Of a DNA stretch of 64,000 bases, positions 44,061-50,239 are shown piece by piece; within the stretch, counting starts at the first letter, position 1, and each line of letters begins with the position of its first letter. The stretch is from Candidatus Atabeyarchaeum deiterrae (lineage in GTDB: Archaea > Asgardarchaeota > Atabeyarchaeia > Atabeyarchaeales > Atabeyarchaeaceae). Under the pieces are notes generated by a model. That model saw only the letters and a program-made list of their open reading frames with translations. It was not told the origin of the DNA and did not search any database. Position numbers and translations under genes: made by a program. The stretch is taken from contig CP147780.1 of NCBI GenBank assembly GCA_037310415.1, positions 416,001 to 480,000 on the forward strand, written 5' to 3'.

Positions 44061-45682
<1,622 letters not shown>

Positions 45683-45791: not shown

Positions 45792-45808
45792 GAGAAACTC
45801 TTTAAAGT
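45792..45808 (+). promoter_or_regulatory. Probable BRE/TATA promoter of the spacer selenoprotein gene
   Basis: GAGAAA-CTC-TTTAAAGT about 65 nt upstream of the CDS. Confidence 0.5.
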
Positions 45809-45870
45809 ATGCTGCATTCGTCATATCATCACCATATGCCACTATCTTGTTGATAGGAAGCGTGCGTCTA

Positions 45871-46104
45871 TTGAAACCGAAGCTTCTGGTGAAGTATTGC
45901 GGAGTCTGAGGTTCAAGCTCTGCTACTAGGGAATTGCTTAGGTCTGTCGTTCCGAGCCTAAAAGGGAAAGTCGATCTTGAAGCGATTAGAGAGGACGGCG
46001 CTCATCCGGAGATTCGCGTAAACGGTAAGAAAGTTGCGGCAGACTACAATAACGTGGAGTCGTTGAAGAAGGCACTCCTGACAACCTTGGACAGACTCAA
46101 GTAA
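45871..46104 (+). CDS. SelW/Rdx-like selenoprotein (CxxU; in-frame TGA at 45907-45909)
   Basis: MKPKLLVKYCGVUGSSSATRELLRSVVPSLKGKVDLEAIREDGAHPEIRVNGKKVAADYNNVESLKKALLTTLDRLK; SelW-type YCGxUG and EIxVNGK motifs; downstream SECIS. Start could be GTG 45862. Confidence 0.85.
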
Positions 46105-46124: not shown

Positions 46125-46175
46125 CCCTGATGACTCCTTCTCCCAAAGGCGCAATGTCACGGAGGGGATGAAGGG
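46125..46175 (+). promoter_or_regulatory. Eukaryote-type SECIS element (form 2-like)
   Basis: ATGAC (46130-34)/TGAA (46169-72) core, TCCTTCTCC/GGAGGGGA helix, unpaired AAA (46145-47), apical GGCG/TGTC mini-stem. Confidence 0.8.
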
Positions 46176-46271
46176 AGGGAAGCCCCCTGGATCAAATGTC
46201 TGTGGCAACGCTTGTCGAATAGACGAGCAAACCTTTGAACATTCTCAAAATGTTCTCCCACTTGATAACCA

Positions 46272-46286
46272 TAATACTTATAAAAG
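46272..46286 (+). promoter_or_regulatory. Probable separate TATA promoter for the 23S transcript
   Basis: TAATACTTATAAAAG followed by a ~250-nt structured leader whose 3' part pairs with sequence downstream of 23S. Confidence 0.5.
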
Positions 46287-46553
46287 ATCTCTGGCACTAC
46301 TCTTGATTTGCAGCAGAGAGACCTAATAACCGATGGATACTCTCTTGACTGCAGTGACGATTTACCGAGATGCAACTCGGGAGGAGCGGTGGAGAACACT
46401 TCTCTCGGGTGAAGGGCACAGTGGGGATCAGCATAGCGGACGTTCCCACAATGACTTGCCACGCATACATTCCACCAAACAGGAAAAGATCGTACAAGCT
46501 GAACAAAGGAGTTCTAACACTATCCGGACCGAGGTTACGAGTAAGGTCTGATA

Positions 46554-49658
<3,105 letters not shown>

Positions 49659-49826
49659 GCAGGCCTGAAAGCCCTCGGTCTGGGTGAATTTAGATCTCCC
49701 ATTTATTGTTCGGCGGGTGGAATTCTGTGCGTGGTGATCTCCTCATTTCTCTTGGACTAGTCAATCCCATGTTTGCCCCCTTGTTGATGGAAATTCTTAT
49801 TTGACATTCCTCGTAAATGTATTCTT

Positions 49827-50239
49827 GGAGTTAGGACGTGGGAGCGCGGCTGCCGGTGCCTTTCTTTCTCTTTGAGGAAGCTAGGTGCTGAGGAAGGTCT
49901 CCCCTCCACCAGACTTCGGTGCAGCGAAAGCTGCGAGGCGAGAGCCTCGCTCCAGGATCAGAAACGACACGTCCACACGTGAAATGACTATGATGCGGTT
50001 GAGGCGATGCTTACAGTGAGCGTCTCCGAGCAGGAGCCAGGGTAACCTAGCTCAATAACCCGCTGAGGATCCTTGTGGGAGCGGTGAAACGGCCTGCCAC
50101 CGAGGAGAAAGCCCAAATAGGCTGTGGATGATGCGTCTGGCTGAACCAGCGGGTAGGGTGAGTAGCTGGATGCCGCAAAGGGTGTTTCGGCGACGAAACA
50201 TCTGGAACAAAAGGGGGCCTACTACCCACACCTGACTCC
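49827..50239 (+). ncRNA. rnpB: RNase P RNA
   Basis: P1 GGAGTTAGG..GTGGG / CCCAC..CCTGACTCC; GAGGAAGGTCTCCC and AACAAAAGGGGGCCTAC P4 strands; TGAAACGGCC, GAGAAAGCCCAAATAGG. Confidence 0.9.

What the first reader, a model, noticed from the sequence alone, without database searches (positions are those of the whole stretch)
45871..46104. Hidden SelW/Rdx-like selenoprotein between the 16S and 23S rRNA genes
Seen: reading through one TGA gives a 77-aa protein, LLVKYCGV-U-G...KGKVDLE...EIRVNGKKV...ESLKKAL. Known: SelW/Rdx proteins have VxYCxxU near the N-terminus and a later ExxVxGKxI strand (human SelW VVYCGAUG...EVMVAGKLI), and characterised archaeal selenoproteins are mostly Hdr/Vhu/Fdh/SelD types. 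Inference: an archaeal Sec-containing member of a family well known in eukaryotes, in a location gene callers usually ignore.
Basis: partly seen in the sequence, partly recalled or inferred. Interest (0 to 1): 0.88.

Follow-up and report, generated by a model that had tools for sequence, protein, structure and literature searches.

The report
Hidden Asgard selenoprotein beside rRNA genes
A small, mis-annotated gene between the 16S and 23S rRNA genes of an Asgard archaeon encodes a real selenocysteine protein of a new family, and its closest known relatives are thioredoxin-like accessory proteins of eukaryotic mitochondria.

Summary
Window 45871-46104 (+) is a 77-codon frame (TTG start) with one in-frame TGA (45907-45909) in a CGVU motif. 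It lies between the 16S (44111-45608) and 23S (46549-49663) rRNA genes.

It is a real gene. Eight further loci from Atabey-, Sigyn- and Njord-labelled Asgard archaea keep the TGA at the same column. Third-codon-position changes dominate on both sides of it. Each locus has a eukaryote-like SECIS hairpin (AUGA, about 9 bp, AAA loop, GA or AA) 19-60 nt after the stop; here it is 46125-46175.

The genome appears to be a complete Atabeyarchaeia genome. It has SepSecS, EFsec/SelB, a PSTK-like gene and Sec-containing SelD, HdrA/VhuD and Prx-like genes with similar SECIS elements. TGA is otherwise its commonest stop codon.

The protein folds as a minimal thioredoxin fold (pLDDT 87). It is not a member of Rdx/SelW by curated thresholds, where similarity is weak (E about 0.003-0.01). 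Its best sequence and structure matches are mitochondrial mL43 and NDUFA2 of the L51_S25_CI-B8 domain family (profile E 4e-6; Z 10 against 7-8 for SelW-like proteins and thioredoxins).

No Cys-containing homologue was found. All 35 database relatives are 51-57 aa fragments called downstream of the Sec codon. Published archaeal selenoproteome surveys do not list this family.

The parts
45806..45818 (+). Putative BRE/TATA-like promoter element (AAACTCTTTAAAG) about 55 nt upstream of the start codon
   Evidence: It aligns with GAAACCTATAATT in G001 and GAAAGGTTATAATT in L034 in the upstream alignment. Inferred from sequence only; there are no transcript data.
45871..46104 (+). Selenoprotein coding sequence: 77 aa, TTG start, TAA stop
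   Evidence: Translation. Nine-member alignment A6 with invariant M1, C10, U13, S16, R20, V27, P28, G43, P46, I48, D58, K66, K67. Codon-position pattern. The orthologues start with ATG at the aligned position.
45907..45909 (+). TGA read as selenocysteine (residue 13, motif C-G-V-U)
   Evidence: TGA is at the same column in all nine loci, in CGVU, CETU or CDHU motifs. TGA is otherwise the commonest terminator of long frames in this genome, 449 of 1127.
46125..46175 (+). Eukaryote-like SECIS hairpin (Asgard type I). Lower stem CCCU/AGGG, 3-nt bulge GAU, GA/GA core (AUGA...UGA), an upper stem of about 9 bp, and a 17-nt apical loop starting CAAA.
   Evidence: Alignments A3 and A8 and pair counts: 90-97% of cells paired, register 0 best, 3 pairs with compensatory changes. 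Model R1 finds the untrained L052 (55.5 bits) and L051 (44.3 bits) elements at the same place after their stop codons. It fits the published Asgard eSECIS-like type I criteria (PMC11227280). SelD, HdrA/VhuD and Prx-like genes of the same genome carry comparable elements.
46176..46187 (+). Conserved tail AGGGAAGCCCCC directly 3' of the SECIS; role unknown, possibly a mini-hairpin or an alternative pairing partner
   Evidence: GG.A.GCCCC is conserved in all five Atabey-type loci.
46266..46281 (+). Context: conserved TATA-like box (AATACTTATAAAAG) of a separate 23S rRNA promoter, downstream of the selenoprotein gene
   Evidence: The same element lies at the same relative place upstream of 23S in G001, L034 and L052. 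Its promoter function is inferred.

Best explanation
This is a real, independently transcribed selenoprotein gene that annotation pipelines truncate.

How it is decoded: the ribosome starts at TTG 45871. It reads UGA 45907-45909 as selenocysteine because a eukaryote-like SECIS hairpin in the 3' UTR (46125-46175), whose AUGA core starts 25 nt after the TAA, recruits the archaeal Sec-specific elongation factor with Sec-tRNA. The product is 77 residues.

What the product is: it folds as a minimal thioredoxin fold (strand 1, C-G-V-U loop, helix 1, strands 2-4, helix 2). Cys10 and Sec13 sit at the N-terminus of helix 1, and an invariant proline (P46) lies at the start of strand 3, the position of the cis-proline of thioredoxins. 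The most likely activity is therefore a small thiol/selenol-disulfide oxidoreductase that cycles through a Cys10-Sec13 selenenylsulfide.

Where it belongs: it founds an Asgard-restricted family seen in Atabey-, Sigyn-, Njord- and Loki-labelled genomes and known only in Sec form. The family lies in the Rdx / L51_S25_CI-B8 corner of the thioredoxin-like superfamily and is closest to mitochondrial mL43 and NDUFA2.

Shown here: the gene, the conserved UGA, the coding constraint on both sides, the SECIS, the Sec trait of the genome, the predicted fold and the ranking of relatives. Inferred: the redox activity, the promoter, and actual Sec insertion.
For: 1. Conserved UGA and coding signal. Nine loci share the frame, the start and the TGA column. 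Third-position changes dominate and synonymous changes lie on both sides of the TGA.

2. SECIS. An AUGA (or GUGA) ... GA (or AA) core with an upper stem of about 9 bp and an A-rich start of the apical loop follows every orthologue. The helix sequences are unrelated but complementary between the Atabey type (CUCCUUCUCC/GGAGGGGAU) and the Sigyn type (UGCCCGGG/CCCGGGCG). It meets the published Asgard type I model.

3. Sec trait of the genome.
- SepSecS scores 487 bits, SelB/EFsec 286 bits, and a PSTK-like gene 167 bits.
- SelD has U in its active site (GU-SCK).
- VhuD carries 2 TGA and the frame just upstream, probably HdrA, one more; Prx-like has a UxxC motif. Each has an AUGA...GA hairpin within about 15 nt of its stop.
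- The source paper reports the Sec machinery and eukaryote-like SECIS elements for this genome (PMC11291895).

4. TGA is a normal stop here: 449 of 1127 long frames end in it.

5. Fold. AlphaFold2 gives pLDDT 87.4 for the window protein and 86.4 for the Sigyn member, with the same strand-helix order. Foldseek and VIA-align rank mL43, NDUFA2 and mS25 first (Z 8-10, rmsd about 2 A over 74-77 residues), then SelW-like proteins and thioredoxins.

6. Sequence. The family profile matches plant, ciliate and algal mL43 at E 4.3e-6 to 5.5e-3, through K-h-x-h-x-Y-C-x-x-(U/G)-G-S-S-x-x-h-R ... P-x-L-K ... H-P.

7. Independence from rRNA. Sigyn-type orthologues lie between a GxGYxYP-family gene and a YfbR-like HD hydrolase gene, with ftr just beyond, and no rRNA nearby.
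Against: - There is no direct evidence of expression or Sec insertion.
- No Cys-containing homologue was found. Such homologues are the usual extra support for a new selenoprotein.
- SECIS covariation rests on five close sequences and is statistically modest: 34 of 500 shuffles reach the observed score.
- The start codon here is TTG, whereas the orthologues use ATG.
- The tRNA-Sec was only weakly identified: 25.9 bits against a gathering score of 47.
- PSTK is below its curated cut-off.
- The window protein passes no curated family threshold, so the redox function rests on motif and fold alone.
- The structures are predictions from shallow alignments of 3 and 9 sequences.
Confidence: 0.82

Rival explanations
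1. It is a true member of the Rdx family (SelW/SelT/SelH/Rdx12), that is, an archaeal SelW orthologue.
For: CxxU follows strand 1 and the secondary-structure order is the same as in Rdx proteins. There are weak sequence hits: TIGR02174 at E 0.011 for the window protein and 0.0031 at best; Pfam Rdx in 5 of 9 members at best E 0.0034; SelTWH_Campy at 0.025; MIEN1 at 0.68. SelW-like structures match at Foldseek E about 7e-4 and Z 7.2-7.9.
Against: All Rdx hits are below the curated cut-offs (16 bits against 34.2; PF10262 gives no hit on the window protein or in the six-frame genome search). The family profile finds mL43 at E 4e-6 but no SelW-type solved chain at E <= 10. mL43 and NDUFA2 outrank SelW-like structures by about 2 Z units in two independent models.
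Confidence: 0.15
2. The TGA is a true stop. The real product is the 56-aa protein called by pipelines (TTG 45934-46104), and the conserved upstream codons form a short leader peptide or regulatory sequence.
For: Gene callers predict 51-57 aa proteins in all 35 database relatives. TGA is the commonest stop in this genome. No expression or proteomic data are available.
Against: The 12-13 codons before the TGA are conserved in frame, with synonymous changes and a conserved ATG/TTG start. Together with the TGA they form the strand 1 and CxxU active-site element, without which the thioredoxin fold is incomplete. A SECIS follows every orthologue. The internal starts of the called fragments are not conserved: fragment lengths run 51-57 aa and the start codons differ.
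Confidence: 0.04
3. The region is non-coding. Its conservation reflects rRNA spacer or leader elements of the 16S-23S region, and the open frame is a coincidence.
For: It lies between rRNA genes here and upstream of 23S in four related loci. rRNA leaders are often conserved.
Against: Substitutions have a three-base periodicity. Orthologues at 27-37% identity in Sigyn-type genomes have no rRNA within 3 kb. Folding confidence is high. G001 and L051 have no 16S upstream.
Confidence: 0.01

Closest known systems
L51_S25_CI-B8 domain proteins of mitochondria (mL43/MRPL43, mS25, NDUFA2 = complex I subunit B8; Pfam PF05047)
   Same: They are the best sequence match: family profile against plant mL43 at E 4.3e-6 and 4.1e-5, Tetrahymena 5.9e-4, Chlamydomonas 5.5e-3. 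They are also the best structural match: Z 8-10, rmsd about 2 A over 74-77 residues, in two independent models (Foldseek). The shared N-terminal signature is h-x-h-x-Y-C-x-x-x-G-S-S-x-x-h-R-x-F ... P-x-L-K ... H-P. The first Cys of the CxxU motif aligns with the conserved Cys of mL43.
   Different: The eukaryotic proteins have Gly (mL43) where this family has Sec, and lack a CxxC/CxxU centre (NDUFA2 per PMC8762328). They are larger structural subunits of the mitoribosome or complex I. The Pfam model PF05047 does not match the archaeal proteins at E <= 10. The archaeal proteins are free-standing 74-79 aa selenoproteins.
Rdx family (SelW, SelT, SelH, Rdx12/MIEN1; bacterial SelW-like; Pfam PF10262, TIGR02174)
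   Same: CxxU lies between strand 1 and helix 1 of a minimal thioredoxin-like fold. The proteins are small and a Sec form exists. There are weak sequence hits (E 0.003-0.01) and structural matches (2fa8 at Z 7.2-7.9; mouse SelW at Foldseek E 2.9e-3).
   Different: All hits are below the curated thresholds. These proteins rank lower than L51_S25_CI-B8 proteins in both sequence and structure searches. Rdx families include many Cys forms, whereas no Cys form was found for this family. PF10262 was not found above its cut-off in any of the 301 Asgard genomes searched.
Asgard eukaryote-like SECIS, type I (Mariotti 2016; Huang, Xiao and Zhang 2024, PMC11227280)
   Same: It has the AUGA_GA core (AUGA_AA in L051 and L052), an upper stem of 8-10 bp with at most 2 mismatches, an apical loop of 11-23 nt that starts with adenines, and a 3' UTR location.
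   Different: This family has its own conserved lower stem (CCCU/AGGG with a GAU bulge, a textbook k-turn layout) and a conserved GGAAGCCCC tail. The Sigyn-type elements enclose a second hairpin within a long lower stem, as SelD of this genome does.
Known archaeal selenoprotein families (SelD, FrhA/VhuU, HdrA, FrhD/VhuD, Prx-like, AhpF-N-like, DsbA-like and others; 11 families per the 2026 review PMC13188914)
   Same: Same decoding system and SECIS type. Like the Prx-like, AhpF-N-like and DsbA-like families, it is a thioredoxin-superfamily redox protein found only in Asgard archaea among the archaea.
   Different: It is not among the listed families. The 2024 survey states that no eukaryote-specific selenoprotein family was detected in Asgard archaea. 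The source-genome paper lists only HdrA, Prx-like, SPS and VhuU. Those surveys relied on homology to known selenoproteins.

Membership tests
Archaeal (Asgard-type) selenoprotein gene | In-frame TGA conserved in orthologues, with coding conservation on both sides | tested here: met
   Nine loci have TGA at one alignment column. Codon position 3 carries far more changes than position 2, and synonymous changes lie before and after the TGA.
Archaeal (Asgard-type) selenoprotein gene | SECIS element in the 3' UTR fitting the Asgard eSECIS-like model (GA_[G/A]A core, upper stem 7-15 bp with at most 2 mismatches, apical loop 8-20 nt, leading adenines) | tested here: met
   Window 46125-46175, and the equivalent element in all orthologues. 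Covariation support is modest.
Archaeal (Asgard-type) selenoprotein gene | Sec machinery in the same genome (SepSecS, PSTK, EFsec/SelB, SelD, tRNA-Sec) | tested here: met
   SepSecS, SelB and SelD pass their cut-offs, and SelD itself contains U. PSTK-like scores 167 bits, below its 290.5 cut-off. The tRNA-Sec candidate L050:193-307 scores only 25.9 bits but has a CUUCAAA loop and lies inside the Sec gene cluster. The source paper also reports a tRNA-Sec.
Archaeal (Asgard-type) selenoprotein gene | Cys-containing homologues aligning Cys with the Sec position | tested here: not met
   None was found among 1.84 billion representatives, nor in profile searches of 5.8 billion clusters in the near and longer length ranges. 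The nearest relatives (mL43) have Gly at that column.
Archaeal (Asgard-type) selenoprotein gene | Physical incorporation of selenium (75Se labelling or mass spectrometry) | not testable with these tools
   The organism is uncultured; no proteomic data are at hand.
Rdx family (PF10262 / TIGR02174) | Score above the curated family threshold | tested here: not met
   PF10262 gives no hit on the window protein or in the six-frame genome search, and its best among 9 members is E 0.0034. TIGR02174 scores 16 bits against 34.2.
Rdx family (PF10262 / TIGR02174) | CxxC/CxxU motif between strand 1 and helix 1 of a thioredoxin-like fold | tested here: met
   C10-G-V-U13. The model has strand 4-9 and helix 14-25, and the Sigyn member has the same layout.
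L51_S25_CI-B8 domain (PF05047) | Score above the curated Pfam threshold | tested here: not met
   No PF05047 hit at E <= 10 for any of the 9 members or in the six-frame genome search.
L51_S25_CI-B8 domain (PF05047) | Significant sequence and structural similarity to solved members (mL43, NDUFA2, mS25) | tested here: met
   Profile E 4.3e-6 to 5.5e-3 against four mL43 chains. Z 8-10 for 15 and 11 family members at the top of two VIA-align searches.
L51_S25_CI-B8 domain (PF05047) | Role as a structural subunit of the mitoribosome or complex I | not testable with these tools
   This is an archaeal protein and no interaction data exist. The linkage to the 23S gene in Atabey-type genomes is only suggestive.

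The most novel reading that the evidence does not exclude
This Sec-only Asgard family may be the archaeal sister or ancestor of the L51_S25_CI-B8 domain. On that reading, the mitochondrial accessory proteins mL43, mS25, mL53 and NDUFA2, so far regarded as eukaryotic inventions, would descend from a host-side (Asgard) CxxU redox selenoprotein that lost its selenocysteine and was recruited as a structural subunit. The conserved position of the gene directly upstream of the 23S rRNA gene in Atabey-type genomes could then hint at an older ribosome-related role.
Probability: 0.25. Interest if true: 0.88.

Novelty: new variant of a known kind. Interest (0 to 1): 0.68.

Why it matters
- It would add a twelfth selenoprotein family to the archaeal list. 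Two dedicated surveys in 2024 and a 2026 review do not list it, because their methods depend on homology to known selenoproteins and gene callers stop at the UGA.
- It shows that SECIS-first or read-through-first searches still recover new families, even in closed genomes.
- The family is known only in Sec form and uses the eukaryote-like SECIS. That makes it a compact test substrate (234 nt of coding sequence plus a 51-nt SECIS) for studying Asgard Sec decoding.
- Its nearest relatives are mitochondrial mL43 and NDUFA2. If that link reflects descent, it bears on which partner of eukaryogenesis supplied the extra subunits of the mitoribosome and complex I.
- In practice, at least 35 database entries are truncated and should be re-annotated.

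Tried and rejected
- **Expression:** no RNA holder was listed for window:45650-46500.
- **False sequence hits:**
  - The single-sequence phmmer hits P0003 and P0005 (AHNAK-like repeat giants) and P0006 and P0007 (repeat proteins) are summed weak repeat matches.
  - L043, from a Bacteroidetes MAG, is an N-terminal Rossmann-type (GATG) protein, not a relative.
  - The hits in G010, G200 and G226 lie inside 484-524 aa frames at E about 0.005 and were dismissed on E-value and frame length, without inspection.
  - The PF10262 hit with a TGA in G029 is spurious, with stops throughout.
- **SECIS scans:** model R1, built from three Atabey-type elements, found no other SECIS in the genome. SECIS sequences are family-specific, so this says nothing about the other genes. 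My regex and descriptor scans were too crude and sometimes picked alternative registers. I rely on the alignments instead.
- **tRNA-Sec:**
  - The best genome hit of RF01852 (549981-550088) is an ordinary intron-bearing tRNA.
  - ARAGORN's 'tRNA-SeC' (246125-246215) is a 7/5 tRNA with a CUUCGAA loop and an intron, Arg-like.
  - ARAGORN found nothing in L001.
- **Fused or longer relatives:** none scored E <= 1. The tool itself rates this as weak evidence.
- **Source paper:** its Supplementary Data 11 (selenoprotein coordinates) is not in the stored text. I could not check whether the authors listed this gene; the main text does not.
- **MFE folding:** plain folding of the 3' UTR gives no significant z-score. 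The k-turn core depends on non-canonical pairs that the energy model ignores.

Full report
**Observation.** Window 45871-46104 (+) translates, with TGA read as U, to a 77-residue protein: LKPKLLVKYCGVUGSSSATRELLRSVVPSLKGKVDLEAIREDGAHPEIRVNGKKVAADYNNVESLKKALLTTLDRLK. There is one TGA, at 45907-45909. Rfam places the archaeal 16S rRNA at 44111-45608, the 23S rRNA at 46549-49663 and RNase P RNA at 49834-50233. Under table 11 only fragments are open, including the 56-aa piece at 45934-46104.

**Organism.** The window is G000:C1:416001-480000 of a single-contig genome of 2,756,679 bp. That length equals one of the two complete Atabeyarchaeia genomes in Valentin-Alvarado et al. 2024 (PMC11291895). 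The closest other genome, G001, is titled 'SRVP18_Atabeyarchaeia-1 chromosome', CP147779.1. I infer that the window comes from the second Atabeyarchaeia genome (Asgard archaea).

**Sec trait.**
- The genome encodes SepSecS (487 bits), SelB/EFsec (286 bits) and a PSTK-like protein (167 bits, below its cut-off). These cluster at 203-212 kb.
- SelD carries U in its active site.
- A VhuD-like gene has two in-frame TGA, the frame upstream of it (probably HdrA) has one more, and a Prx-like gene has a UxxC motif.
- The tRNA-Sec was hard to find. The best RF01852 hit and ARAGORN's 'SeC' call are ordinary intron-bearing tRNAs.
- A candidate with a CUUCAAA anticodon loop and two insertions lies inside the Sec gene cluster at 208792-208906. 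It scores 25.9 bits, below the gathering score.
- TGA is otherwise the commonest terminator of long frames, 449 of 1127. Read-through must therefore be site-specific.

**Is it a gene?**
- A six-frame search of relatives found a 59%-identical frame in G001 with TGA at the same codon. It has an ATG start and sits about 440 nt upstream of 23S, but has no 16S within 1.5 kb upstream.
- An exhaustive phmmer search of 1.84 billion representatives found only one true relative, a 56-aa fragment. Its contig again shows ATG, 12 codons, TGA and the rest of the frame, upstream of 23S.
- Among these three genes, differences fall 44-46 at codon position 3 against 9-12 at position 2. Synonymous changes occur before and after the TGA.
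- A profile search of 400 Asgard genomes added two members from another family with a CETU motif.
- A profile search of 5.8 billion clusters returned 35 proteins. All are 51-57 aa, that is, fragments called downstream of the Sec codon. Their labels are Sigynarchaeota, Lokiarchaeota/Lokiarchaeia and Njordarchaeum.
- Reading their contigs gave full-length frames with TGA at the same column: CGVU, CETU or CDHU.
- The nine-member alignment A6 has invariant M1, C10, U13, S16, R20, V27, P28, G43, P46, I48, D58, K66 and K67.
- No Cys form was found.

**SECIS.**
- From 25 nt after the TAA, the 3' UTR reads CCCU-GAU-GA-CUCCUUCUCC-(CAAAGGCGCAAUGUCAC)-GGAGGGGAU-GA-AGGG (46125-46175).
- This gives a 4-bp lower stem, a 3-nt bulge, tandem G.A pairs (a k-turn layout, AUGA_GA) and an upper stem of about 9 bp. 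Adenines open the apical loop 11 nt after the core.
- The same layout follows every orthologue. The AUGA/GA core and the AAA are conserved, with AUGA_AA in L051 and L052.
- Helix II differs in sequence but stays complementary. Within the Atabey type, 90-97% of cells are paired, three pairs show double changes, and register 0 is clearly best. Only 31-34 of 500 shuffles reach the observed score, which is modest support.
- The Sigyn type has an entirely different helix (UGCCCGGG/CCCGGGCG).
- A covariance model built from three elements recovered the untrained L052 and L051 elements at the expected place, at 55.5 and 44.3 bits.
- The element meets the published Asgard 'eSECIS-like type I' criteria (PMC11227280).
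- It resembles the hairpins after SelD (type II, with a ministem), VhuD and Prx-like in the same genome.

**Transcription context.**
- A TATA-like box aligns about 55 nt upstream of the start in three loci.
- A second conserved box, AATACTTATAAAAG, lies between the SECIS and 23S in G000, G001, L034 and L052.
- This suggests that the selenoprotein gene and 23S are separate units and that the '16S-23S spacer' is not a classical ITS.
- The linkage with 23S is conserved in Atabey-type loci.
- Sigyn-type genes lie between a GxGYxYP-family gene and a YfbR-like HD hydrolase gene, with ftr just beyond. No rRNA was found in the two Sigyn-type loci scanned (L037 and L038).
- No RNA run holding the stretch was listed.

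**What is the protein?**
- AlphaFold2 with the 3-sequence alignment gives pLDDT 87.4, with strand 4-9, CxxU loop, helix 14-30, strands 34-40 and 47-50, a short pairing at 53-54, and helix 62-75. A Sigyn member modelled with nine sequences gives the same order at pLDDT 86.4.
- Foldseek against the PDB ranks mL43, NDUFA2 and bacterial SelW-related proteins together (E 3e-4 to 3e-3, TM 0.65-0.78).
- The exhaustive VIA-align search ranks 15 L51_S25_CI-B8 proteins (mL43, NDUFA2, mS25) first, at Z 8.0-10.0 and rmsd about 2.3 A over 71-77 residues. Thioredoxins score at most 7.7 and SelW-like 2fa8 scores 7.2. The second model reproduces this: mL43 at 10.0-9.2, NDUFA2 at 9.1-8.4, 2fa8 at 7.9.
- By sequence, the window protein alone hits plant mL43 at E 0.017 and MIEN1 at 0.68. 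The family profile hits four mL43 chains at E 4.3e-6 to 5.5e-3 and no SelW-type chain at E <= 10.
- The alignment shows K-L-V-V-S-Y-C-N-W-G-G-S-S-R-G-I-R...L-P-A-L-K...G-Q-H-P in mL43 against K-L-L-V-K-Y-C-G-V-U-G-S-S-S-A-T-R...V-P-S-L-K...G-A-H-P here. Sec thus aligns with Gly in mL43.
- Curated models do not claim the protein. PF05047 and PF10262 give nothing for it. PF10262 reaches E 0.0034 in the best of nine members. TIGR02174 gives 16 bits against a cut-off of 34.2. NF049942, 'DF family (seleno)protein', gives 7e-4 in three members.
- PF10262 passes its cut-off in none of 301 Asgard genomes searched, but does so in the Haloferax and Sulfolobus controls.

**Interpretation.**
- The gene is real and encodes a selenoprotein (confidence about 0.9 for that part).
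- The CxxU motif at the N-terminus of helix 1 and the invariant proline before strand 3 are the hallmarks of redox-active thioredoxin-fold proteins. The likely activity is thiol/selenol-disulfide exchange. This is inferred, not shown.
- The family is better described as a new, Sec-only, Asgard-restricted family whose nearest characterised relatives are the mitochondrial L51_S25_CI-B8 proteins.

**Literature.** Huang et al. 2024 list seven Asgard selenoprotein families and state that no eukaryote-specific family was detected. A 2026 review counts 11 archaeal families, none SelW/Rdx-like. The genome paper names only HdrA, Prx-like, SPS and VhuU. I found no paper linking L51_S25_CI-B8 to archaea. 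I could not read the genome paper's Supplementary Data 11.

**Verdict.** This is a new variant of a known kind, a thioredoxin-fold CxxU selenoprotein decoded by an Asgard eukaryote-like SECIS. A more novel reading remains open at about 0.25: that the family is the archaeal relative from which the mitochondrial mL43 and NDUFA2 domain descends.

Noticed in passing
L050:193-307 (G000:C1:208792-208906, outside the window): Best tRNA-Sec candidate. It has a CUUCAAA anticodon loop and insertions of 13 and 24 nt in the D arm and variable arm. It scores 25.9 bits against a gathering score of 47, and lies inside the Sec gene cluster between a SelD-like gene and SepSecS. Standard tools miss it or mis-call other tRNAs as Sec.
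   Followed up: partly
L049:226-313 and L001:1501-1609 (outside the window): ARAGORN's 'tRNA-SeC' (G000:246125-246215) is a normal 7/5 tRNA with a CUUCGAA loop and a 13-nt intron, Arg(UCG)-like. The best RF01852 genome hit (549981-550088) is an intron-bearing tRNA with a CUUACAA loop. Both are false Sec calls caused by introns.
   Followed up: yes
window 46266-46281 (also L019 about 1914-1930, L034 about 1019-1034): A conserved TATA-like box, AATACTTATAAAAG, lies about 270 nt upstream of 23S in four Atabey-type loci. 23S appears to have its own promoter, so 16S and 23S are adjacent but probably not co-transcribed. In G001 and L051 there is no 16S upstream of the selenoprotein gene.
   Followed up: partly
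window 49834-50233: RNase P RNA (156.6 bits) lies only about 170 nt downstream of the 23S rRNA on the same strand. No 5S rRNA was reported in the window.
   Followed up: no
G000:C1:826942-827383 (-), 2423125-2423502 (-), 899256-900400 (+) (outside the window): Other selenoprotein genes of this genome: VhuD-like with two U, an upstream frame (probably HdrA) with one U, Prx-like with UxxC, and SelD with U. Each has an AUGA...GA hairpin within about 15 nt of its stop. The SelD element has a ministem and a second hairpin enclosed by an 8-bp long-range lower stem, an architecture also seen in the Sigyn-type SECIS of the new family.
   Followed up: partly
P0002, P0004, P0008-P0040 (database entries): All 35 database relatives are annotated as 51-57 aa hypothetical proteins that start after the Sec codon. 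One (P0028) is labelled 'thiamine pyrophosphokinase' by its source. This is systematic mis-annotation of the family.
   Followed up: yes
L044, L046, L048, L054 (Sigyn/Loki-labelled contigs): In these lineages the orthologue sits in a conserved neighbourhood: a GxGYxYP-family gene upstream on the opposite strand, and a YfbR-like HD hydrolase and formylmethanofuran-H4MPT formyltransferase (Ftr) downstream. It is not next to rRNA.
   Followed up: no
window 46176-46187: A conserved GGGAAGCCCCC tail directly after the SECIS lower stem is present in all Atabey-type loci. It could form a 3-bp mini-hairpin or compete with the lower stem. Its role is unknown.
   Followed up: no
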